In this document: positions 18,925 through 61,314 of the stretch, piece after piece
Numbering within the stretch: position 1 is the first letter of the stretch
Layout of the letters: every line of letters begins with the position of its first letter
NCBI GenBank assembly: GCA_051362555.1
Contig: CM120644.1
Coordinates: 938,954 to 1,002,953 of the forward strand
Origin: Lingula anatina
Lineage: Eukaryota > Animalia > Brachiopoda
DNA length: 64,000 bases
Direction of reading: 5' to 3'
Notes under the pieces: generated by a model
What the model was told of the DNA's origin: nothing
The model's database searches: none
The model's input: the letters and a program-made list of their open reading frames with translations, nothing else
Program-made: the position numbers and the translations under genes

Positions 18925-21900
18925 ATGGACTACAGCCCAGAACTCAATTCCCGGCCGCCAGCGTCCTCGTTCATCTGTTTCTGGCTCGTCTTCACCTTGT
19001 CTCAAGTTCTGGGAGTGGCACTCGTAGTTATGCTGGGGTTGTGGCTTTACATATTCCAAAAGGGGTTCGCGTGGACGGAAAATCCCCGGTTAGAGATGAA
19101 CTTCCACTCCATCTTCTCGGTGATAGGGCTGATATTTCTGTATGGAGAGGGTAAGTCGCCATTTTTGTCAGTTTTGAGACACATTTAGCCCTTTGGTCGG
19201 AATAAAATCTCCTCGAATTAGAGGAAATCCAAAATGGCAACCAACAGGTGCAGTACAATTATGTTCGAGAAATATCCGTTTTGAGATCGTAAAATCCCTG
19301 AACCATGCCATCGGTGGTACAATTAGACGTCTTGTGTACATTTATGCTGTCTAAACATATAAGAATTAAAAACCTTTTAATTACCTACTGCTGAAATCAT
19401 TTGAATAATTATTCATTAATAATTCACGCAGCTATTTTGTAACGGTAATTTTGACTCTCATTATCACTGAATGATCATGAGGTTTTAAAACGATTGCTTT
19501 GCCATAGCACCGGAACCCGCCGTTGTATGGGAAACAATTGCAAGTTTACAAGATACTAGTTCACTATAAATTGGCAGTCTTAATGCCTTTGCAATAAATC
19601 ATGACTGTCCAACAGAGAGCTCATTCATGATCAATCATTGAATGGACTGAAAATAAAGTAAATTGGTGGACCATAATCGGCGATGCCTGCACCAGGCTTT
19701 ACATTTGAAGATGACGGCCCGGGTATTTCAGTCGTGCAATAGCGCACTGAAAATCAACCTGAATAATATTATGAATTCAACAAAACTGATCCTGTGTCTG
19801 TATCAACCCTCTATCCCAGGTATTCTGGTGTACAGGGTGTTCCGAAATCAAAAGAAGATCTACGTTAAAGTGCTCCATGCCTCCGTGCAGGCCATTGCCG
19901 TGATCTTCATCATAGTGGGGTTGAAGGCGGTCTTTGACTCCCACAACCTGGTCCAGTACAAGATTGCCAACCTGTACAGTATTCACAGCTGGCTGGGTCT
20001 AGCGACCATTATACTGTTTGGGTTACAGGTAAATACCGTGGTCTCTCTTACTCTCTCTCTTTCTCTCTCTCTCTCTCTCTGACGTTTGACATAACTTTAC
20101 ACACTTAAGAACTAGCAATTTCGATGGCCCCAGCGTTAAATCTCTTTTTTATTAATACTATTATCATTGTTCTGCTGGTAGTCGTAAGGGGGGGGGGGGG
20201 GTAGTGCTTACTGGGGGTAAGATTGCTTTGCTGGTGGATGGGTGGGTGTAGTCAAATAATAATTCCTTTTGAAATCAATACTCGTTTAACATTTTAAGTA
20301 TGTCACAATCAGTAAATAACAGGAGACCTCCTCGGTTAGCCTGATTCTTGAAAGTGAACCCTTTTGTTGTGTGTAGGGTGAAGTGCATTAATCTGTGGGG
20401 ACAAAACAGCTTGCATCTGAGACACTAAAGTTGCCATGTTTAATTGTATGGCATCAGCTACCATTTTGTTCACATCTGCTGGTGTAACTGACGCTACTGA
20501 TGCTAAAGAATTCCAAGTTGCAGATTCAGCCCTAACAGCTGTGTCAGTGAGGTCACTTAAAGATTGTGGATTTTCCAAAATCACAACCTGTTTAATGGCA
20601 GGGTTAAGCCCATTAATAACAGCATCAATGATTTGTGAATTATGTAAATCTAAATCACGACCTAAGGTAATGACTTTTGCTAGAAAATCTTGCACATTGT
20701 CTGTGCCTTGTGTTTGATTGTAAAATTGTGCTTTCTTTTCTCGTAATTCAGATTGGGATAGCCCATATCTATTTAAAAACAATGCTTTCAGATCATTAAA
20801 ACTATTTGCAGTTGATTCTAACGATTTATACCATAAACTTGCATTATCTTGCAGTAAAAACGGTAAATTGATCATTCTCTGCTGGTCAGAAAAATTTACA
20901 TAGTTGCAATACTGTTCATATTTGAGTATCCAGTCTCTTGCACGTTCGCCCCTTTTCCCTGAGAAAGGAATTGGGGTTAGGTGAGGAGGTACTGAGTACA
21001 TTACCACTGGCGCTGGCTGCATCAATTGGACCGGGGCCGCCTGTTGCTGCTGGTGCTGCTGCTGTGGTTGCTGCATGGCCGGCTGGAGCGGGGTGGCTGG
21101 CTGGTCCGTCTGGGGGGCCTGCTGTGGAGGCAGAGGGGCTGTCTGTTGGTGATCTGGGGATGTCTCTCCCTGCTGTGGAGGTTGAGGGTCTGCCTGCTGC
21201 TGCTGACCTGGGGACGTTTCGCTCTGCTGTGGAGGCGTCTGGGGCTCCAGGGTACCTGGAGCAGTGAGGGGGCTGCTGGGGATCACTCTGGAAGGTCCTG
21301 GTACTTCATGGGCTGGGTCTTCTGATGTATGTCTCCCCGAGGAGTCTCCCTGTCCTGACTGTGATCTAGTACCTGGTCGTCCTGGCACTAGGGTCTTAGA
21401 CATATCTCACAGGATTAGCCACAGGTCTCCACCAGTGTCACAATCAGTAAATAACAGGAGACCTCCTCGGTTAAGATCCTTTATTATTCTTCTGTCTGCT
21501 CCCCTAGCAGGCCAGTTCTTATACACTAACATGTATGAGTATTAATTATGTATGCTATTGTGTGCTGTGCTGGTACTGAAAAAGGCCTTGTCTACTTTGT
21601 CTAAACTATAACTAAGAGAACATTAATGTCATTGTAGTCAGGAGATATAGGATGTCAACTGTGTATAAGGACACATGTGGATATACATGCATAATTACTT
21701 TGGAACTGCATAATTAGTGCTTAATGAACTATTTTATGTGCTGTGGTCATGCACAACTTTGGAACTTCCTTGTAGAGTTGCCATTATCAAAATTACATGC
21801 ATGATAAGTATTTAAATGCTACGTTGCGTCCATGAACGAAAGACGAAGTTTTCACTGGGGTAAAAACTCTTTCAGTCACGTTAAAAGAGATATTTCATTT

Positions 21901-24113: not shown

Positions 24114-40824
<16,711 letters not shown>

Positions 40825-43660: not shown

Positions 43661-45626
43661 TGTCAAGCAACACAGAGTCCTACCATTCTAGGGTCCGGCG
43701 GACCCGGTGTTTTAAAACTGAGAGTCCGGCGGACTCCCTGTCTCGAAATAACGGGTCCCGGACTCTATGTTCTGAAATGTAGAGTCCCCCTAGACACTCA
43801 ATTTCAGTAGGGAAATTCCTAGGACCCTACGTTTTAATACTGAAAGTCCGCAATAATGAAATCTCACACTTAAAACATGCAATTTAAAAATAACATTGAA
43901 CATGATGTTGACTGATACAGAGGGAAGAATTATAAGGATTAAAGGTAAAATAAACATTACTAACCTCTGTTAAAGTGTAACACGTAGTATAAATGTGCAT
44001 TATTCTCATTTCATAAACTTTAATTTGCAGTTTTATCTTTTGTATGCAATTGAGAAAGAACATCACTAAAGAAATATAAATTTATTCAGAATATATAAGT
44101 GCCTTTGGTGAACTTCCTGATTTTACAAAAAAGTTTATTTTATTAATCAGTATAGTTGTTGTCTTTTCTCCTCAATTTCATTTTCTCTTTGTCGTGCATT
44201 TCTTGTAACAAGGCAATTTCTTATCTTCGCTTTCTACTACTTTCCTCCTTCTCCCTCTCTTCCTTCCCACTCTCTACTCCAACTATCTTTCTTACAACTC
44301 TGTAACATAAGCAGCCGCTTACAAGCTAAAACAGAAAGATAAATATGTACCTTAAATGTACATGTAAGTTGCGCTTTTATTAAACAGTCTTGAAGTTAAG
44401 CGGGTATAATAAATGTATAAAACTTACTTTATAATGGTTTGCGGCGCTTCTCCTGATTGCTCTTTTCTGATTGTTGGATGTTCGTCTTCTGTACCTGCCA
44501 TATTGTAAATAAAGTCGCACTGCTTGAAAATCCCTGCTGACAGAGTAAGACATCGCGAAGAGCTAGACATTTTATACCCTGAGAAACATGGAATACATTC
44601 CTTTTGGATTGATTCCTTTTTCATTTAGGGTATGCAACTTAAATTAGAACTTTATATAATTTGTTAAATAAAATTAAGAGTACTTTTTCAATTACGCCCC
44701 ATAAGCATGTATATTTGATAACTAATTAATTTCGTCAGTTTCAAGAAAATACATATTTTGCACAATTTGGCATTGATGCACTGTATAACGCTAGCTGTCA
44801 CACATTTATGAGTGGTAGTCATTGTAGACTAAGTCACGCGTATAGTCTAAAGAAAAGAAACGTTTTGCACAGCTTAGCATCGATTCATTGTGTACCACTA
44901 GCTTACACACATTTGCGAGTGGTATTCAAATAAGTCACGCGTATATTCAGTCCAAAGCATCACAATGAAATGGGATGTGTGGGATATATTTTAAGTAAGT
45001 CCAATTAAAAAAAAGGTATGAAATGTAATCAAAAGTGTGTATATATCACATTTTATTGTGAAATGAAACACAATAAATGGACAGTAAGTTGAATATTTAA
45101 CTATAGATTTAAAAAAAAAAGAGTGAAAATTGAGGCGTTATAAAGTCAACTCTAGAGTTGGACTAGAACCAACATATATTGTTAAATTACTGCAAACTTC
45201 CCTGTCATTGGATACCACAGTAGGCTCACCACCTGTGTCGCTGTCCACTACACCACCAGGACGTTGTGCAAACCACCGCCTTTTTGTTATATTATATTTA
45301 CTTGCATCAAGGGCTTTGCTTTATTATAATTCTATTATACCCAGATTGTCAATATAAAGCGCTTTTACTAAATATCTACATTAGGACCCTAGCTTTTAGA
45401 CCCAGTTATTCTGTATGACGAGCGGACTCTGTGTTTCGTGATAGCTGTCATGAAACGTAGGGTCCGGTTAAATGCTGGGTCCGGGGGACCCTGTATATTA
45501 TATCCAATTACCATGATACAGAGTCCGGGACCCGTTATTTCAGAAACCAGGGGTCCGTACGACGCCTGGTTTCTGAAATAACGAGTCCCGGACTTTCTGT
45601 CATGAGGGACCTTCTGGTACATGACA
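43661..45626. mobile_element. Ginger1-like non-autonomous DNA transposon
   Basis: TGTCA...TGACA termini, 4-bp CCGG TSD (43657-43660 and 45627-45630), imperfect TIRs of about 175 bp (shared gaaataacgggtcccggactct and ggaccctacgttt); it splits a gatcgatcta-family MITE whose halves rejoin on removal. Confidence 0.8.
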
Positions 45627-46139
45627 CCGGCTAAGCTGACAGTAATCTAGTGAGACTCCCCACAGGGATAGATCGATCTAAAATATGTTGGAATGGGGTC
45701 TAAATCTGCGGGAATGCAGTCAATATACCCTTCACTAACAGACATTTGCGAAGGATTTTTTTTTAAAAGCTAAACGCGGAGCTAAAATATTCTGGATAGC
45801 AGCTATTGCCATCGCTATGTTTTATGCCTATTATATACTTCATACGTGCACGTGTTTCAGTATTTCTAACCAGTTTATCCGAAGACTTATCTTGTATACA
45901 CGTCACCGTATCAACACAGTAGCCCAGGTCCATACAGTACTAGAGTAGTGTAACTGTTCTAGTTCAAACAATGGTATCACCACGTCCAGTCTGGGAGACA
46001 GGACAACATATCTATACAGAGTTCCTGGCCCCTACTTGGTGATATAAAACATGTTCACATGTGACACATACAACTGAAGAACTATCTGATAACCTTATCA
46101 TCAGTGTATGTCAGTTATGTATATATCAGGCACATGACT

Positions 46140-46264
46140 ACGTAACCTGACGCCATTATTAAAAACTGCAGGGTCCAGGAAAGAGGTTGGGAGGCGACAC
46201 CAGTCCGTTCCTTTCAAGATATCTGCTGTCTGTGGAACTGGAAAGAACACTTGCTCTCCTTGTA
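46140..46264 (+). promoter_or_regulatory. Putative promoter and non-coding first exon of the CARD-TRIM-NHL gene
   Basis: CRE-like tgacgcca and AT-rich tattaaaa near 46150-46165, then a GC-richer segment ending in a gtaagt donor at 46265; the next plausible acceptor is 50712. Inference. Confidence 0.35.
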
Positions 46265-46326
46265 GTAAGTACATGTACCGTGCTGATATTGCTAAGTGGA
46301 CAGTTTCTTGCTTGTAAAAAATGTAG

Positions 46327-46392: not shown

Positions 46393-48280
46393 GTACTAGG
46401 AGATTTCTATTTGTGTGTGTGGAGGTGTGTGGGGGGGGGGGAGGTCTGATCACAGTCCAGGGGAAATAAATTAACCAAATCACAAGTCGTTGTAGATAAA
46501 ACTTCATGCATATTTTATTGAAAATGCGAGTTTGGAGAGTTGAAAATCACGAATAACTTAGCATAATGACTTCGCTTACGAAGGACGAGGGAAAAAAGTC
46601 ATTTATGAGTCACATTTACACATGTATGAGTCACATTTATGAGTCACGGGAATGGGGTGCTTCGCAGATCACGCTAAATACATGTAATTTTAACATTTTA
46701 ACATCTCTGAAAATAAATTGTGGTCTTCCCCATAACGAAGATACCTAATGGGATCCTTTAGTTGCAGTAGCTTAGTAACAGTAACTGGTCAAAATAACAA
46801 TTCAATAGCGGGACAGGTGTCTGAAGTAAGCCTACAGGTCTAATCAATGTGCAGAATATTCGGGGCTACGTGACACCTATCACGTCCATGCCCATGTCCC
46901 AGTACCTCCCCTTGTTAAAAGGACAGCATTTTGGGTCAAATTATATCCCCTATCAGTCAGCTGACGAGCACATGACTTGAGAACATAACGCTATTTTGTC
47001 GATTACTTGCAACCCCTTGCTAAGTTCCAAAAGTGACTTTGGCCCATGGGCGTGCTCTTTCAATTAATTTTGGTTCCTTAAATTGGCATCTGGTGACAAT
47101 GGCAAATGGTGCTACTTACCCCTCCCCCCTCCTGCACCATGCACTTTATTCCTAGTGCGCCTAGCACCGGCTTGATTGAGAAAAGTAAGAGGCTGTAGCT
47201 TTATGCATGAAACCGAAAGCTTGGAAGTACTGAGTTTTAAAATGGGAGTTTCTAAAGAATATAACCATGAAAAGTCCTATGAGCCATTTTACTACCAACC
47301 AATAAAATAGTCTCTGCAAAGTAAAAAAAATGATTTCAATAAAGAAATGATTTTGCTGAGCTGGTGTTTCTTAAACCAAAGCCATGATTGGGATGCCTTG
47401 ATACAAAACTTGCGATTGCTCAGAAGATTGCTACAGATTCAAATATATTTAACAATGTCTGTTTCATTACATACGGCGTTGGAAATGTCACTGTTTCTAA
47501 AAAATAACTATTCACTTAGAGCCGTTTTATTACCCTCTAACAGGGCCGCAGATGAATAATGGCGACTTTTTCCAACGCGAGAATTATCAAGAGACGTCTG
47601 TGGATATCTAGTGAAAACGTCTATGTTTGGTCCAGATAGAGCGTGCTGTTTGACCCAGTTCTAACGTCAGATATTTCATTTTTCATTTAAATTTTTCATG
47701 TCGCACTATAGAAAATATGTCAAGCCTTGTGCAACAGGCGAACACAAATGAAAATAACGGGATTATAAACAATACATTTATTGTGTAAATAATAATATTT
47801 GTTTTCGAACACAAGACGAACCGATGGAGGCTACAACTCTGCCTCTGTAAGCAGCCATCGTGTCCGCATTCGACACAGTGTTCATGCCATAATGTTAGAA
47901 CTCTAGATAAAGTATATTGTTTGAATTCTATCCCCAATTACCAATTAACATTCACACCTGAATTGTTCAGTATAGCACATCCGTCCAAAAGCATAAATGT
48001 TTCATTTCCTGCTTAAAGGTAAGACAATAAGCCATAAACCCCTCAAAAGGTACATGAAATCAAAATTTTTTTTTTTTAATATACAGAAAGATATGACCGG
48101 GCAAATGATTTAATCCCCCCCCCCCGTGTACCTGTAACAGCACGATAGGCGCACATGCTGCATTCAGTTGAATGGGTCCAAAGTTCACACCTGCAGATGA
48201 GGCTTAATTGATGAATGTGAATGATTCCCTAAAATATATGGTAATTAATGTTCTCGTAAAAACTGAGTGTCACTGAGTGT

Positions 48281-49177
48281 CACACCCTGAGTGTCACTGC
48301 CTTGTCAACTAGCATGATGGCTGAAGTGAACTGAGGCCACACCCTGAGTGTCACTGCCTTGTCAACTAGGTTGATGGCTGAAGTAAACTGAGGCCACAAC
48401 CTGAGTGTCACTGCCTTGTCAACTAGAATAATGGCTGAAGTGAACCGAGGCCACACTCTGAGTGTCACTGACTTGTCAACTAGCTTGATGGCTGAAGTGA
48501 ACTGAGGTCAAACCCTGAGTGTCACTGCCTTGTTAACTAGCTTGATGACTGAAGTGAACTGAGGTCACACCCTGAGTGTCACTGCCTTGTCAACTAGCTT
48601 GATGACTGAAGTGAACCGGGACCACACCCTGAGTGTCACTGCCTTGTTAACTAGCTTGATGACTGAAGTGAACTGAGGTCACACCCTGAGTGTCACTGCC
48701 TTGTCAACTAGCTTGATGACTGTTGTGAAATGGGGCCACACCCTGAGTGTCACTGCCTTGTCAACTAGCTTGATGACTGAAGTGAACTGGGGGCCACACC
48801 CTGAGTGTCACTGCCTTGTCAACTAGCTTGATGGCTGAAGTGAACTGGGGGCCACACCCTGAGTGTCACTGCCTTGTCAACTAGCTTGATGACTGAAGTG
48901 AACTGGGGGCCACACCCTGAGTGTCACTGCCTTGTCAACTAGCTTGATGGCTGAAGTGAACTGGGGGCCACACCCTGAGTGTCACTGCCTTGTCAACTAG
49001 CTTGATGGCTGAAGTGAACTGGGGGCCACACCCTGAGTGTCACTGCCTTGTCAACTAGCTTGATGGCTGAAGTGAACTGGGGCCACACCCTGAGTGTCAC
49101 TGCCTTGTCAACTAACATGATGACTGAAGTGAACCGGTGCCACACCCTGAGTATCACTGCCTTGTATACTAGCTTGG
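48281..49177. repeat. Minisatellite, about 15.6 x 57-58 bp
   Basis: Unit cacaccctgagtgtcactgccttgtcaactagcttgatggctgaagtgaactg(g)ggc repeated head to tail without spacers. Confidence 0.95.
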
Positions 49178-50321
49178 TGTTTAAAATGTACTTGGGTTGG
49201 TTTTACAATAGAAGGTTTACCACTCATTTGGCTTAACACACATAAAATTTGGTCCACCTCAGTTTAATATAACTCCGCAATAGTCAAATTAAATGCCAGT
49301 AGAGTACGTGCGTCTTGGTCTGAAACATCAGTTATATTATGTCGTGCATTGAAACTGTTGTAATGCTTTATTCATTAAGACGGCTTCCGGTTAGTCTTGA
49401 ACCATCGTTTTTCCATTCTTTTGTCCCAAAGTCTGAAAAATCTAGACCAGTTTTTGGACTGAAGTTCTTTCATATTCATAATCTTTCTTGCTTATTTTGT
49501 GGAAATTTTTTCACGAGAGATTGAAGCAAATATATGAAGGGTGAAATCGCTTGTCCTATCACAGTGCTGAATTGTAGACTTGGTGATATCAGAAATGTAC
49601 ACACTTCAACTCCACTACTGTTGGCAGGAGGTGACGTCAGGTCAAACAGATTTCTCGTTTAGTAACAAACACACGAATAGTATAGGGGAAAAGGCTGAAT
49701 CGTTGATTTTATTTTAGCGCTCCTTGTCTACTTCTAAAAGAAAGAAAACATACTAGATGTAATTGCTTTTCAGTTTTGTTTCATTATTAAAAATAGCATG
49801 CACAGACTGGCAAACAGGGTTTGCACTTGATGTTTTCAACACGTATTATTAGTACTTTTTATCAGAAAACGTCATTAATAAAAGTGAGGCAATTTAGTTC
49901 ACCGGATTATTTTTCGAATGGGTTGACATTTTCGCTCACATTTGACTCCGGTATCCATCTTGCATTCGGCATTGCTGTAGATTATTTTGGATTCCACATG
50001 CTTTGGGGTTCACTCGTATTTAACCCATTCTTTCATATTTGTATGTGGACATTTTAAGGAAACACATCACGTTCCTATTTATCATTGGGTTATTTTACAT
50101 TTCAAATGTGTTCACATACTCGGGCATGTACGGGAAGATATATAGTCAACGGTTGCTGAAAAAACTTATATAAACGTGAGCATTATCCCTTCATTTTAAG
50201 CAAACATATTTTTATTTGTATTTTGTTTGCTCCATAAACAGAGATCCACGATATACAGAGATTCACGAAATGTATTACAAACAGTACTTTTATATACATG
50301 TAATGCAAAGGCCTATAGGTA

Positions 50322-50604
50322 CCCGCACGAAAATGCAGTAGTATCGAAGTAGCAAGGAAGCATTAACGCAGTAGTGGTGTGGAGCATATTTGCAGTAGAA
50401 TGCAGTATAGCCTACTGCAATTCTACTTCAAAAATTACATAGGGTTGTACTGAGGAGGAGCATTAATGCAGTAGATTAGCAGCATGATAGAAGCAGGTTT
50501 CAAATATGCTAATTAGCTCCCACATCGAAGCAGATTTGAAGCATATTTGCAGTATGATTGCAGTAGTCTACTGCGCTGGAGTATCTACTTCGTTTTCGTG
50601 CGGG
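50322..50604. mobile_element. Second copy of the 284-bp CCCGCACGAAAA MITE
   Basis: TA|cccgcacgaaaa ... ttttcgtgcggg|TA; near-identical to 762-1045; ends about 108 bp upstream of the CARD exon acceptor. Confidence 0.92.
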
Positions 50605-50719
50605 TATACCTATATATTCGTCTTTCTTTTTGTTTGTTTGTTTATCTGTATATGTATAACGTCTGTAGGGGTACAACGTGTATGATATGCAAGTGTTCAT
50701 TATGTATTTCAGAGTCATC

Positions 50720-53155
50720 ATGAATGAAGATCAAAAGCAGAAGATCAGACAGCAGTATGTCTACCTGGTCAACAACCTGACAGACCCGAGGAGTACAGGA
50801 CTTGCTGCACACCTGTACCAAGATGGCGTCATTGAGCTGCGAGATCGTCAGATTGTGGAGAAGGAAAAAGCAACAGAAGACGCCATAAAACATCTGCTTG
50901 ATGCCGTGATGAACTCTTCACATCAGGGCGCGTTCGACTGTTTCCTCAAACTTTTAGAAGAATATGGACAAGACTACCTGGCCAATGTTTTAAGACAAAG
51001 TACCAGTTCTGAGGGAACAGGTAATATATATAGCCTAATAATGATTGTATTGCAATGGTAAGGTTCTTATTAGTGATGTATTAACATCCGTATTATTAAA
51101 TATGGAATATTTTAACCGTCCATAATTTATATGCATAATGTAGATACGGTCATAGATCGCTGAGGGCTTAAATAAACTTTCCATTCCAAGCTTTTACGGA
51201 ATGAAGTTTACGTGAAGTGATGTTATGGATTGTTATATTATGTAATTAGTAATAATTTGAGTAATGTTATAGGGATTCCACAGCTCTATGTAAATTGAGT
51301 GGTGAAGCATTTCCCATTCTTGGCAGTAAAATATCACCTTTTTTATTTCAGAGAAAACAGTCAAGGGTGATATTTTACTGCCAGGAAGTGCAAATGTTTC
51401 ACAACTCATTTTACATGCATTTATTCATTGTGTTTCATCTAGCATACAGAAGTGTATTACAGCATCAAGACATTGAGAAATGCTCTCATGTTTCTTTTAT
51501 AGCACATTGATTTATGTATTTTGTACATTACTAACGTATAGCATTAGTTAGCCTCAGCTAAGTCATTGTGTATTTAAAATCCAGGCTTATGTGACGTGTG
51601 TCCAAAAGACAAGAAACACCCTGCCACCTCCCTGTGTTTGGACTGTAACGAGCTCATGTGTTCTTCGTGTGCTGACTATCATAGGAGGACAAGCATCTCG
51701 AAGGAGCACAGACTCAATGAATTAACAGCAGCCCTCACAGACAAATGTAAGGTACATCCATCCCTTTATCTTAAATCCTATTGTCCCCAATGTGACGTCC
51801 TGATCTGTGAGCGATGTATGGTGGACACACACAAAGGACACACAGACGCTTGGAAAGACGCTATAACAACGGCCGAGGACTTGAAATGTAAAGTGAACGG
51901 GATTATCGACGAAATCAAAGATATAACTCTCAACAAACCTTCGATAGAAAAAGAAGAACAGAAACGACTAACCGACTTGGACGAGCAAAGACAGCGCGCT
52001 AAACAAGCTATTGAGACACGAGTAGACGAGGTTTGCAAACTAGCAAAGGTCTGTGCTGAAAAAGCCAAAGAAGAAGTGGACAAAGCATATTTTAGTTTAA
52101 AACTTCAGCTGCAAATAACCAATAAAATTGATTCCCTCGAAAAACAACTGAAAGCCTATGAAAATATGGTGAATGACGCTTCCGTCTCTAGTGTAGTTAA
52201 AAATCACGCGGAATGGGAGGCTTCACTAAAGGAAATGTTGGAGACGCATTCCCCCACCTCTCCCGTGCCGGTGCTAAGATTTCAAACCATCACTTGGGCA
52301 GAAACAGCCATACAGCAGGCAATGGGTGCGGTGGTTATAGGAGAGATCACGCCGACATTGATCACACAACACCAACTGCAGTGTTCCAAGGATCCAAAGG
52401 AGTTCCCCATAACTGTGGACAGTATGCCTGGTGGGGACGTCGTGGTGGGGACGGGGTGTAAAGCTGATAAAACCAAGCGTCGTATTATCATCTGTTCCTC
52501 CACATGGGACATCAAGAAGGAGATCAAGGTTACGGGGCTGAGAGGACTGACAGTACTACGTGATGGTACAATAGCAGTCACTGTATATGACGGTAGTACA
52601 CAGGAAGTGAGGATATACACTAAAGACGGTGGTGTGAAATCATCGTTCAAGTGCAGCACACCCAGTCGTATTACAGTGAACCACGAAGGTTACCTGGTCG
52701 TGATGGATTCTAGAGCAAGCACATGTGGTAACGTAATGGTATATCATACTGACGGTACACAGGTCAGGGTATTCTCTGACATCTCATCGAAACCAGTACA
52801 ATATTTCAAGTACATAACAACCACACCCAGTGGTGACGTCATAGTATCAGATCCCAATGACCGCTGTATACGTGTCTACACACCTGAGGGTCAGCTACGG
52901 TACACGTACGGTGGGGAGGGCGTCATGAAGTATTCACAGGGTGTCTGTGTGGATGAAGATGGAACCATATTTATATCCGACCTCCATGCTGACAACATGT
53001 ATATCCACCAGGTGTCTCCTGCTGGCCAGTTCATGCGATATGTGCTGACAGACAAGGATGGACTGTGGGGACCCAAGGACGTGTGTATCAACAAGGAAGG
53101 GCACCTTGTGGCAGCTCAACAAGACGGATGGATCAAGGCTTACAAGTATAAATAA
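50720..53155 (+). CDS. CARD-like domain + B-box1 + B-box2 + coiled coil + NHL repeats (RING-less TRIM-NHL), about 623 aa
   Basis: Exon 50720-51020 (MNEDQKQKIRQQYVYLVNNL..LYQDGVI..LLDAV..AFDCFLKLLEEYGQDYLANVL, CARD-like helical pattern), phase-1 donor CAG|gtaata, acceptor ccag|51585, exon 51585-53155 (CDVC..CLDC..CSSCADYH..H; CKVH..CPQCDVLICERCMVDTHKGH; heptad region; NHL-like repeats PSRITVNHEG, SQGVCVDEDGTIFISD, PKDVCINKEG). 1872 nt, open. Confidence 0.88.
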
Positions 53156-54416: not shown

Positions 54417-54731
54417 AGGGATAATACATGTAACTCTTCGTATGAGAATAACCCATAGAAATATAATATATTCTGTTTACCACAAAAACGGCAGTTAAAG
54501 CTATTATTCTGATATCTGAGCTTGTCTTTAGACCACATGACCTCCTTTGATGGCTATATTCTGTTATAATCTCTTAAGAGATTTTAACAGAAAACCAAAC
54601 TTTTTAGAAAAAGAAAAGGGACTAACTTTGAATGTAAAATTGGATTCATTAACCATTGGTAAGTATGGGAAAAATTGTTGTTTACTCCAGGAAAATTCAT
54701 TTTTTGGCTGAAACGAAGAGTTATTATCCCT
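54417..54731. mobile_element. Kolobok-like MITE, reverse-orientation copy of 23096-23432
   Basis: ttaa|agggataata ... gttattatccct|ttaa; the interior matches the reverse complement of 23096-23432. Confidence 0.8.
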
Positions 54732-56408
54732 TTAAAATCGTGTAATGCTGAAGGCCAGGCTTAGGAGAATGTGGTAGCGAAGCTAGTTTCACAGTTAACA
54801 CATTCAGTATTCCGCCGAACCCGTGCGGTGATAATGGTACAAATGGTGCTATTGTTACGTGTAAAGTAAATATCGCCAGGATCAGTAAATATCCCTGATG
54901 TGATAAATTATTCACACATGTCAACAAATAATTTCGCTATAATAGTGCATGATCGTATTATTAGCACTGTTACAATTATGGTAAATGTAAATGTAGTATT
55001 TTAATTTTCCAACTGGGGGTACAGCATATGAATGTATGTTTTTAGGAAAAAGGGACAATTTCCTATAGGATCCTATAGGAAATCTTATAGGATCCTATAG
55101 GAAATCTTATAGGAACCTATAGAAATATAATAGTGCATGATCGTATTATTAGCACTGGTACAATTATGGTAAATGTAAATGTAGTATTTTAATTTTCAAA
55201 CTGGGGGTACAACATATGAATGTATGTTTTTAGGAAAAAGGGACAATTTCCTATAGGATCCTATAGGAAATCTTATAGGATCCTATAGGAAATCTTATAG
55301 GAACCTATAGAAATTCATATTAACTGCTTTGAATATTTTTATAGCTTTTTATATATTGTTGGATCTTTGGCAAAATTGGTAATAGGCACTGGTCCCTCAA
55401 AACAAAAGAGAATATCATGTTTACATTCTTTATTCAATATGTATAAATGTATGTACATATTCCACAGTATGGTATGCAACCAGCTTACTAGAGAATTGTT
55501 TTATAGATTTTTTGCAAATTTAACGGTGCTGCTACTGCTTTTGAATTATAGGTTCTATAAGTTATCACAAGTATCCAATATGTCTTGTCAAGCTGTGGCG
55601 TCACTGTCTTTTTCTTGTGTGAGTTCGAACTCCTTCCAGAATGAGTGGCTAAAACCTCCCTTGGCCAGACCGTGTCCATTGTCAGCATACTGCTTTAGTC
55701 ACTTAATAATTGAAGAATTTCAGACAAAAGTCTTTTGCACATTGTTCAACTTTACTGTGATAAGTCTTTTGCACATTGTTCAACTTTACTGTGATGGCCT
55801 TCTTAACCTCTGAATTGTGTTGAACCATTTGCGGATGTATTCTGAAAGATAGACATTGTGAATTTCAATTAATTGTACATGTCTACAAAAATGCAAAATG
55901 ATGAAGGAAAAATTTTCTAATGAGATCAATAATAATCATTGCACCAATTCTATTTTGAGCAATTCATAGCCTTTATTAGTTAACTGAATTTTTTTCAAAG
56001 ACAAGGTATTAAAGCTGGATAATTTGTAAAAAAATATATAAAGAACATGAACATATTTCATAGGACCAAGTCCACAGGAACAATCAGAAATGAATTTTAA
56101 AATGCAGACATTTGCAGTGGAGAAAACTCTACTCTGGTTAAATATGCAATTGGGCCATTACAGAGCTGCCAGGGCCAAAAATGTCCCAAAAACTATAAGA
56201 AAACTTATTTCCGAGGGTAAACAGTAATTCCCTATTCTCACCAGTCTTTGCTTGACCTAAATCATCAGTCCAAACCAAAAAAAAAGCAATCCCCAAGTTA
56301 AAATTTAAAACTTTTGTGTACGCAAAATGGTCAGATTTTCACAATGCACATTTCATTTCCATTATGTATAGGTTAGCAAAAAATATTTTTAAACAAACTA
56401 TGGTGTTT

Positions 56409-59712: not shown

Positions 59713-61272
59713 AATAGCGCCAGTATAATGTAAAGTGCATTCGATTGTAACGAGTAAACACAGCTGTATAGTACGTAATTGCCTCTAGCAGTGACACTTG
59801 GTCATCTGCCTGATTTGCATGTAAATAAACGCTGAGTGCCTTGTCGGCACTTGAGGTATATGATTTGGACACTAAAGACGTGTTTGTTTGCTTCCTGTCA
59901 TGGCGTGGTGGCAGCGGTATTTTTAAACCCTTACGAAAATGTCCTATAGGATCCTATAGGAAATTGGGCCAATTTCCTATAGGATCCTATAGGATCCTAT
60001 AGGACTTTTTCGTTAGGGAAAGTTCGTAACTACGTACGTCAGAGATACATTTGAAAATGGCTAGTACAAGCACAAGTTCACTTAGAGCACCAAAGCAATG
60101 GGTGCTTACAAAAACAGAGACAATAGGATCCTTCGAGAAGTGGAAGCAAAATCTCGAGTTTCTGCTCTCACAAGATGCAACATTTTCGCACTTTTTGTCA
60201 AGTAGTGTGACATGGTTGAAGAAAACCAAACAAAATTCTCTACGCGGATTTGTCGACGACGACGATACCATTTCTGAGAGACAAATTACGACGCACAGCA
60301 CAACAAAAGGTAACCCAATTAGAGGCTATACTAAATCAAATAGCCAACTTTTGTCCAGTAATTTCACGTGGATCTATTGTGAAAAGCTCTACCAGTCTGA
60401 ATTCTGTTTGGCAGTCTATTCGGTTACACTTTGGTTTTCAATCAACCGGCGCTCACTTTCTAGACTTTGCGCAAATAAAACTTGAACCCGACGAGAGGCC
60501 GGAGGATTTATATCAGCGTTTAATGGCGTTTGTAGAAGACAATTTGCTCACCGCCGATGGTGGTATTACTCATCACAACGAGGTTATGACAGACGACGAA
60601 GAAATTTCGCCTTCTTTAGAAAACTTTGTCATACTCACCTGGTTGAAGTTAATTCACAAAGATTTGCCCTTGCTAGTGAAAGAGCGATACGGAACGGAGT
60701 TACGATCTCGAACTCTCGCTTCAATCAAACCTGAAATATCTCAAGCTTTAGATTCATTATTGGATCAATTGAATTCTCACGAGGAAATTCGTGCCATGAG
60801 AGCAATTACAAAGCAAAAACCCAAAATGTTCTCTCCCGTGAAGGAGCACGGTCCTATTTTCAACGCAAAAAAACGTTCTTGCCCGCTTTGTAAACAGGCC
60901 GGTCGACAACGCTACGATCATTTTCTCAGCACTTGCAAATTTTTACCCGAGCAAGATAAACTTTACATCACCAGGACTCACCAGGTTATGTGCAATGAAG
61001 AGTCATCCTCTGATGAGGAAATTGTTGTAGCAGACGTGTCTACCAACACAAATTTTGAGATTCCCAGCGCAGAGGTTCAACGTGTCCGCATTAGTCCTTC
61101 GCCATGCTTCGATGCTTATCACAATCAACACCCGGTTCATTTAACACTCGATTGTAGTGCCGAGTCTAATTTGATAAGTCAGACTACTGCAATAGAGATA
61201 GGAGCGCCCATCTTACCTAACAAGTCACAAACAGCCAGCCAGGCAGACGGGAAATCCACCTTGAACGTTATA
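59713..61272 (+). mobile_element. Truncated Gypsy LTR retrotransposon (LTR remnant, tRNA-Leu-like PBS, gag and protease start)
   Basis: AATAAA near 59824, PBS TGGTGGCAGCGGT 59906-59918, gag from ATG 60057 (RAPKQWVLTKTETIGSFEKWKQNL) with one frameshift near 60280, CPLC..H..C knuckle, aspartic protease-like LTLDCSAESNLI; homology stops at about 61272. Confidence 0.85.
59928..60018. mobile_element. 91-bp near-perfect palindromic mini-element (CCC...GGG termini, 2-bp AA flanks) in the Gypsy leader
   Basis: cccttacgaaaa.gtcctataggatcctataggaaattgg-g-ccaatttcctataggatcctatagga..ctttttcgttaggg. Confidence 0.75.
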
Positions 61273-61314
61273 CAGTGGTCGGAAAAATTTTGTTTCCGTT
61301 GTACACCGGTGTAA
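60057..61314 (+). pseudogene. Gypsy gag-protease pseudogene
   Basis: ORFs 60051-60485 and 60250-61314 overlap in different frames; RT, RNase H and integrase are absent. Confidence 0.8.

What the first reader, a model, noticed from the sequence alone, without database searches (positions are those of the whole stretch)
50720..53155. TRIM-NHL protein whose RING position is occupied by a CARD-like death-fold exon
Seen: a separate 100-codon phase-1 exon with a CARD-like pattern splices in frame onto a single intronless exon encoding B-box1, B-box2, coiled coil and NHL propeller, with no RING. Known: canonical TRIM-NHL proteins (TRIM2/3/32/71) begin with a RING, B-box/coiled-coil modules drive oligomerisation, NHL propellers bind RNA or protein, and CARDs signal by homotypic polymerisation. 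Inference: exon shuffling turned a TRIM scaffold into a sensor-oligomeriser-CARD receptor, logically like an NLR or RIG-I but using an NHL sensor, possibly a little-described invertebrate innate immune or cell-death receptor class.
Basis: partly seen in the sequence, partly recalled or inferred. Interest (0 to 1): 0.8.

Follow-up and report, generated by a model that had tools for sequence, protein, structure and literature searches.

The report
CARD replaces RING in brachiopod TRIMs
This intact gene belongs to a lamp-shell (Lingula) family of TRIM-like proteins that carry a cell-death signalling domain (CARD) where their closest relatives carry a ubiquitin-ligase RING, in front of a propeller that varies on one face, so it likely acts as an intracellular sensor built like the human immune protein pyrin, though no function has been tested.

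Summary
Exon 50720-51020 encodes a CARD (Pfam 40.4 bits, cut-off 23.9). It splices across a 564-nt intron onto exon 51585-53155 (two B-boxes, coiled coil, six-bladed NHL propeller), giving 623 aa without a RING. Thirteen reads in 3 of 4 runs skip this intron, but all laid reads come from paralogs or alleles (none 99% alike). The upstream exon is untranslated. Eight Lingula anatina proteins are 73-88% identical (6 with a full CARD); a further one, about 28% identical, has the same layout. A tree of the body alone nests the CARD proteins among RING-bearing Lingula TRIMs, so CARD probably replaced RING once. Among paralogs, 21 of 23 variable propeller sites lie on the ligand face, while the CARD has none. 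Positive selection is not shown, and a mostly RING-bearing control family shows the same bias. Best reading: a pyrin-like sensor whose CARDs cluster when it assembles on a repetitive target (0.55). It is neither an NLR nor an RLR. Ten literature searches found no description of this architecture; the main Lingula immunity paper could not be read.

The parts
46237..46264 (+). 3' end of a probable untranslated leader exon (its 5' end was not found), followed by a GTAAGT donor at 46265
   Evidence: Matches a loose read end (6 reads, agreement 0.72) at 24 of 28 letters, counted by eye. An 18-nt seed hit once, 0.09 expected. Joined to 50713 it gives an in-frame TAA three codons before the ATG.
50713..51020 (+). 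CARD exon: acceptor before 50713, ATG at 50720, 100 codons plus 1 base (phase 1)
   Evidence: Pfam CARD above the cut-off; loose read ends stop at 50713; helical bundle at pLDDT about 80 in the paralog model.
51021..51584 (+). 564-nt GT-AG intron, holding a hairpin element at 51288-51416
   Evidence: 13 reads skip 564 nt.
51587..51860 (+). B-box 1 (about aa 103-142) and B-box 2 (about aa 155-186)
   Evidence: Pfam PF00643 E 9e-12 and PF22586 E 5e-10; zinc-ligand patterns complete.
51861..52352 (+). Coiled coil and short linker (about aa 191-357); no filamin domain
   Evidence: The family profile matches the TIF1-beta/TRIM28 fragment 6h3a over positions 82-351, E 3e-16; long helices in the model, at low pLDDT.
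52353..53155 (+). Six-bladed NHL propeller (about aa 358-623) and stop codon
   Evidence: 24 strands at pLDDT about 85 in paralog P0005; Foldseek best hit TRIM2 NHL E 4e-18; profile best hit TRIM3 NHL E 2e-28.

Best explanation
The gene encodes a CARD-B-box-B-box-coiled-coil-NHL protein of a Lingula family, which probably arose once when a CARD took the place of the RING in a TRIM-NHL ligase, and which likely works as a clustering-activated intracellular sensor. Shown: the architecture, the splice (in close paralogs or alleles), the family, and variation concentrated on one propeller face with a conserved CARD. Inferred from other TRIMs: the coiled coil forms an antiparallel dimer that holds the two N-termini far apart (about 170 A in pyrin), so with a linker of about 8 residues the two CARDs of one dimer could not touch. 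Inferred: the paired propellers bind a repetitive target (pathogen protein lattice, altered host complex or nucleic acid), B-box contacts join dimers, and CARDs of different dimers meet. Inferred: the clustered CARDs recruit a CARD partner, most plausibly a caspase-Y or the adaptor CRADD, turning a 'tag for degradation' output into a death or inflammation signal.
For: CARD above the Pfam cut-off, no RING. 8 of 16 hits are Lingula anatina proteins at 73-88% identity; 6 of the 8 list PF00619, none lists a RING. A divergent CARD-B-box-NHL protein, P0028 (Lingula anatina), is 27% identical to P0005 and collinear from residue 1, so the layout is old and kept. Nearest non-CARD relatives are RING-B-box-B-box-CC-NHL proteins (P0027, 32% identical; P0029, P0030, P0180) whose B-box 1 starts at 96-105 against 103-109 in the CARD proteins. 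Body-only tree: CARD rows form one group (93/93; 90% of bootstrap trees); holding the 5 near RING rows together is rejected, p-AU 0.032. 21 of 23 propeller sites with 4 or more residues, and 10 of 10 with 5 or more, lie in the d-a and b-c loops; top against bottom loops p<=1e-4; the CARD has 0 of 94 such sites and the highest paralog identity, 0.87. 19 replacement against 20 silent codon differences to the reads, omega about 0.3-0.37, p 0.001. Pyrin precedent and geometry (PMC4455283 passages). Lingula lacks APAF-1 and caspase-2 but has six CARD caspase-Y paralogs and CRADD (PMC11463336 passages).
Against: No functional, expression-on-challenge or interaction data. Positive selection is not shown: the most variable sites need 7 changes, against 2.8-3.6 expected for a neutral site. 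An unrelated family with a RING in 6 of 8 members shows the same bias (11 of 12 sites with 5 or more residues in top loops), and human TRIM-NHL paralogs also differ most at the top opening (PMC9634614 passages), so the pattern may reflect tolerance. The propeller as a whole is not the most variable part (identity 0.81, against 0.70 for B-box 1 and 0.77 for the coiled coil). The CARD group is not starred, and two origins are not rejected (p-AU 0.136); both tested groups were named after seeing the tree. Some paralog models are damaged or truncated (P0004, P0005, P0006, P0010). No read matches this copy at 99%, and depth is low.
Confidence: 0.55

Rival explanations
1. A regulator, not a receptor: the CARD docks on CARD proteins (RLRs, caspases, CRADD) and sequesters them, or delivers them to RING-bearing relatives through mixed coiled-coil dimers, or to autophagy.
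For: RING-bearing close relatives exist in the same species. A single, conserved CARD suits a fixed docking partner. That CARD-only proteins act as inflammasome regulators was seen only in a search listing (PMC7555848).
Against: A decoy would not need a family of propellers that differ on one face. The coiled coils of CARD and RING subfamilies are far diverged (32% identity over the body), which makes mixed dimers doubtful (inference).
Confidence: 0.25
2. An RNA-binding protein: the propeller binds RNA as in Brat or LIN-41, either as an mRNA regulator or as a RIG-I-like RNA sensor with a CARD output.
For: NHL fold shared with Brat and TRIM71; Brat and LIN-41 bind RNA on the upper face with unrelated residues (PMC5908797 passages); this copy's top loops are slightly basic (17 K+R against 13 D+E).
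Against: Top-loop charge ranges from +4 to -5 among 10 propellers, and only 2 basic top-loop residues are invariant. The closest solved NHL domains are TRIM2/3, for which Brat-like RNA binding was judged unlikely. A conserved RNA target would predict a conserved face.
Confidence: 0.1
3. A birth-and-death array of chimeric genes with little present function; the variable face is merely relaxed.
For: Variable sites do not exceed the neutral rate; several paralog models are damaged; expression is low.
Against: Intact 623-codon frame with complete zinc ligands; purifying selection against the reads (40 of 239 differences were visible); the same layout kept in P0028 at 27-30% identity; spliced transcripts.
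Confidence: 0.1

Closest known systems
Pyrin / TRIM20 (PYD - B-box - coiled coil - B30.2)
   Same: A death-fold domain stands in place of the RING on a B-box/coiled-coil scaffold with a C-terminal binding domain (PMC4455283 passages).
   Different: CARD, not PYD; two B-boxes; NHL propeller, not B30.2; about 8 residues between death fold and B-box, against 60 or 280; a multi-gene family; derived from Lingula RING-TRIM-NHL proteins, hence a separate origin.
TRIM-NHL proteins (TRIM2, TRIM3, TRIM32, TRIM71/LIN-41, Brat) and the expanded invertebrate RING-B-box-CC-NHL proteins
   Same: B-box 1, B-box 2, coiled coil and six-bladed NHL propeller; direct relatives P0027, P0029, P0030 and P0180 carry a RING.
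   Different: No RING, no filamin domain, an N-terminal CARD, and no conserved basic top face. RING-less members such as Brat exist (Table 1 passage of PMC3503706), but no CARD-bearing member was found in the searches.
Death-fold plus variable beta-propeller expansions in marine invertebrates (DED-TRADD-N-WD40 in amphioxus and oyster) and grafted N-termini of lophotrochozoan RLRs
   Same: Lineage-specific expansion, death-fold head, variable propeller proposed as sensor (PMC8195603 passages); death-fold exons gained by Lingula RLRs (PMC8998645 passages).
   Different: Those use TRADD-N or a helicase as the switch; here it would be a TRIM B-box/coiled-coil scaffold.
RefSeq Lingula anatina 'TRIM71-like' and 'uncharacterized' proteins (P0003-P0010; P0028 = XP_013387785.1)
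   Same: Same family and architecture, already present as automatic gene models with a precomputed CARD hit.
   Different: Their names ('E3 ubiquitin-protein ligase TRIM71-like') ignore the CARD and imply a RING that is absent; the window's copy is 12-27% diverged from each.

Membership tests
CARD (PF00619) | Profile match above the curated cut-off | tested here: met
   40.4 bits against 23.9, E 2.9e-10; no other death-fold family at E<=1 apart from CARD_2. ESM Atlas: nearest clusters are CARDs, 0.92.
CARD (PF00619) | Six-helix death fold matching solved CARDs | tested here: inconclusive
   Helical bundle at pLDDT about 80 in the paralog model. The CARD-only model was poor (pLDDT 54); its searches gave only Z about 5 to PYD domains among unrelated rows, and no Foldseek hit at E<=0.001. 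PDB sequence hits to caspase-1, caspase-9 and RAIDD CARDs were not significant (E 0.3-1.4).
CARD (PF00619) | Homotypic CARD-CARD binding or filament formation | not tested
   No complex prediction was run; needs a bench assay.
TRIM (RBCC) E3 ligases | N-terminal RING finger | tested here: not met
   No Pfam RING; no RING pattern in six frames of the window, and no tblastn match to the RING regions of P0011 or P0018; leader exons carry in-frame stops.
TRIM (RBCC) E3 ligases | One or two B-boxes followed by a coiled coil | tested here: met
   'TRIM-like' in the sense of PMC3503706 (passage).
TRIM-NHL (class VII) | Six-bladed NHL propeller | tested here: met
   24 strands; TRIM2/TRIM3 NHL are the best hits.
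TRIM-NHL (class VII) | Filamin domain before the propeller (TRIM2/3/71 type; recalled) | tested here: not met
   No Pfam filamin hit; only about 35 residues lie between the last helix and the propeller.
LIN-41/TRIM71 or Brat RNA binders | Conserved basic RNA-binding upper face | tested here: inconclusive
   Top-loop charge is near neutral and variable, 2 invariant basic residues; no residue-by-residue mapping or surface potential was computed.
Pyrin / TRIM20 | Death-fold domain in place of the RING | tested here: met
   pyrin layout.
Pyrin / TRIM20 | PYD head and B30.2 tail | tested here: not met
   CARD and NHL instead. It works like pyrin at most; it is not a pyrin.
NLR | NACHT/NB-ARC NTPase | tested here: not met
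   No such Pfam hit; the 623 residues are accounted for by other domains.
RIG-I-like receptors | DExD/H helicase and C-terminal regulatory domain | tested here: not met
   No such Pfam hit.

The most novel reading that the evidence does not exclude
A brachiopod class of pyrin-like sensors built by convergence: expanded invertebrate TRIM-NHL proteins are a variable recognition library whose output head is swappable (RING to degrade, CARD to signal), and the CARD version is a direct activating platform for the six caspase-Y paralogs of an animal that has lost APAF-1, switched on by lattice-driven clustering instead of an NTPase.
Probability: 0.3. Interest if true: 0.85.

Novelty: new variant of a known kind. 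Interest (0 to 1): 0.62.

Why it matters
It would be a second, independent invention of the pyrin design (death fold on a TRIM scaffold), here with RING-bearing sisters still beside it in the same species, so the swap of output domain can be studied directly. It gives a testable candidate for an open question: what activates CARD caspases in brachiopods, which lack APAF-1 (PMC11463336). It also shows that the database names of this family ('E3 ligase TRIM71-like') are misleading.

Tried and rejected
No genome is held for the window, so paralog number, intron positions in RING relatives and codon-level dN/dS could not be obtained. An upstream RING exon was rejected. The commoner leader seen in reads was not found in the window; its consensus has an in-frame TGA three codons before the joint (read off by hand). 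The CARD-only fold and its two searches were uninformative. A donor for the CARD was not found: a word-based search with it returned only 7 family members among 147 candidates. Positive selection was tested only by a protein-level stand-in and not shown. The same architecture outside Lingula was not seen: of the 149 new representative hits, 44 were scanned with Pfam and all with a family CARD profile; only P0028 had a CARD; only the best 150 of 10,685 hits were visible, so this is weak. Trees: one search was a quick tree of 29 rows (P0011 and P0122 dropped, no B-box 1 pattern); a careful tree of 16 chosen rows. No complex prediction was run. Literature: ten searches listed no paper that describes a CARD-B-box-NHL protein by title or abstract start; most listed papers were not opened. 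Gerdol et al. 2018 on Lingula immunity (doi 10.1016/j.dci.2017.12.021) and an amphioxus immune-repertoire paper were not held; the former may mention this family. No supplements were read; the domain-architecture source data of PMC8195603 could bear on novelty.

Full report
1. Observation. The frame at 50720 runs 301 nt to a GT donor at 51021. After a 564-nt intron ending in AG at 51584, exon 2 runs open to TAA at 53155; joined, this gives 623 residues. Pfam finds a CARD at residues 7-93 (E 2.9e-10, 40.4 bits, cut-off 23.9), two B-boxes and NHL repeats, and no RING, Death, DED or PYD family at E<=1. Raw RNA reads of the same species label cover both exons and not the intron; 13 reads in 3 of 4 runs skip exactly 564 nt (the tool places the joint 2 bases to the right). 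None of the 469 laid reads is 99% alike, so they come from close paralogs or alleles; expression of this very copy is not shown. At 95% likeness depth was about 1-2 in one run and near zero in three.

2. No RING upstream. Reads run on before 50713, an acceptor 7 bases before the ATG. One leader type matches 46237-46264, ending at a GTAAGT donor; spliced to 50713 it makes an in-frame TAA. The commoner leader is not in the window, and its consensus holds an in-frame TGA (read off by hand). No RING pattern or RING-like tblastn match exists in the window. No second copy of the gene lies in the window.

3. Family. A search with exon 2 returned 16 proteins; the top 8 are Lingula anatina models at 73-88% identity, 6 listing a CARD and none a RING. 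One of the other two starts inside the CARD and one is truncated; one paralog has two propellers. The window is therefore most likely from a Lingula or close relative (inference). Shared contig lengths and adjacent LOC numbers suggest tandem clusters. A profile search of 1.84 billion representatives (best 150 of 10,685 hits seen) added P0028, a Lingula anatina CARD-B-box-NHL protein 27% identical to the family and collinear from residue 1, and RING-bearing relatives P0027 (unnamed), P0029, P0030 and, through a cluster, P0180 (Lingula anatina).

4. Origin. In trees of the body alone, without head columns, the CARD proteins form one group (quick tree, 29 rows: 96; careful tree, 16 rows: 93/93, 90% of bootstrap trees) inside a well-supported clade whose other members carry a RING. 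Forcing the five near RING proteins together is rejected (p-AU 0.032); two separate CARD origins are not rejected (p-AU 0.136) (groups named after seeing the tree; three long branches). B-box 1 starts at 96-105 in RING relatives and 103-109 in CARD proteins, so the CARD fills the RING-plus-linker slot. RING-to-CARD replacement is thus well supported, a single event moderately so, and exon shuffling as its mechanism is inferred from the phase-1 intron only.

5. Structure and variation. AlphaFold2 of paralog P0005 (6-sequence alignment) gives a helical head (pLDDT about 80), low-confidence B-boxes and long helices, and a 24-strand propeller (about 85). Its best matches are TRIM2 and TRIM3 NHL domains. 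Across 8-10 family rows the CARD has 0 of 94 sites with 4 or more residues; the propeller has 23 of 263. Of these 21, and all 10 with 5 or more, lie in d-a and b-c loops as read from the model; top against bottom loop entropy differs with p<=1e-4 under three loop definitions. That these loops form the ligand face is established knowledge, recalled; papers place RNA binding on the upper face and divergence at the top opening (PMC5908797 and PMC9634614, passages). Against over-reading: the most variable sites need 7 changes where a neutral site would give 2.8-3.6; an unrelated family of 8 (6 with a RING; one named from the coral Porites lobata) has the same bias; B-box 1 and the coiled coil are less conserved than the propeller overall. 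The 40 of 239 read differences that were shown fall in 39 codons, 19 replacement and 20 silent, omega about 0.3-0.37, which fits a gene under purifying selection.

6. Mechanism. In pyrin the RING is replaced by a PYD and the antiparallel coiled coil puts the B-boxes about 170 A apart, with the binding domains near the centre (PMC4455283, passages). Carried over by homology (inference), a dimer of this protein would hold two propellers centrally and two CARDs at opposite ends on 8-residue tethers. CARDs would meet only when dimers assemble through B-boxes on a repetitive target, as RINGs do in TRIM5alpha (recalled; lattice recognition is also discussed). The output would be CARD nucleation. Lingula lacks APAF-1 and caspase-2 and has six CARD caspase-Y paralogs and CRADD (PMC11463336, passages), which are the natural candidate partners. 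I put this at 0.55, a decoy or adaptor role at 0.25, RNA binding at 0.10 and a relaxed array at 0.10.

7. Comparison and novelty. It is TRIM-like but not an RBCC ligase, not an NLR, not an RLR, and not a pyrin, though it shares pyrin's design. Death-fold heads on variable propellers, and grafted death-fold exons, are documented in marine invertebrates, including Lingula RLRs (PMC8195603 and PMC8998645, passages). Ten searches listed no paper on CARD-B-box-NHL proteins; eight papers were read as passages only (searches cover seven of them by id: PMC8195603, PMC3503706, PMC5908797, PMC9634614, PMC8998645, PMC11463336, PMC4455283; no eighth was opened, so the count is seven), and the key Lingula immunity paper was not available. 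The architecture already sits in public gene models. Earlier unchecked notes of this scan report Death-, TIR-, CARD-CARD- and kinase-headed NHL genes in other invertebrates; these are leads only, but they suggest a recurring theme.

8. Verdict. Real, intact, and a genuine RING-to-CARD swap in a Lingula family; a new variant of a known kind; function untested. Interest 0.62.

Noticed in passing
P0019-P0026 (one named from Porites lobata): A family of B-box-NHL proteins 74-86% alike in the propeller, 6 of 8 with a RING, whose propellers are also hypervariable in the top loops (11 of 12 sites with 5 or more residues). Expanded invertebrate TRIM-NHL proteins may be a general variable recognition class.
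   Followed up: partly
P0003 (860 aa) and P0007 (N-terminal 49 aa): P0003 has two tandem NHL propellers; the extension of P0007 looks like a propeller fragment, perhaps from an upstream tandem copy.
   Followed up: no
P0006 residues 100-125: An internal duplication of the CARD end replaces the first two cysteines of B-box 1 in this model; it may be a gene-model error.
   Followed up: no
window 52997-53002: A 6-nt insertion in blade 5 specific to this copy: absent from the 8 paralogs and left out in 24 of 29 reads there.
   Followed up: partly
window 48218-49253: Minisatellite of 57-58 nt units, about 17 copies, inside the probable leader intron.
   Followed up: no
window 45627-45684, 50330-50600, 54446-54735; hairpins 45512-45604, 51288-51416: Interspersed repeats or hairpin elements; the first three draw many partly matching RNA reads from other loci.
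   Followed up: no
window 19660-20079 (+) and 30165-30551 (-): Exons of a cytochrome b561 gene and of an SRCR-domain gene.
   Followed up: partly
window 20339-21406 (-) and 60220-61311 (+): Retrotransposon gag-like frames (Retrotrans_gag E 3e-10; weak aspartyl protease hit).
   Followed up: partly
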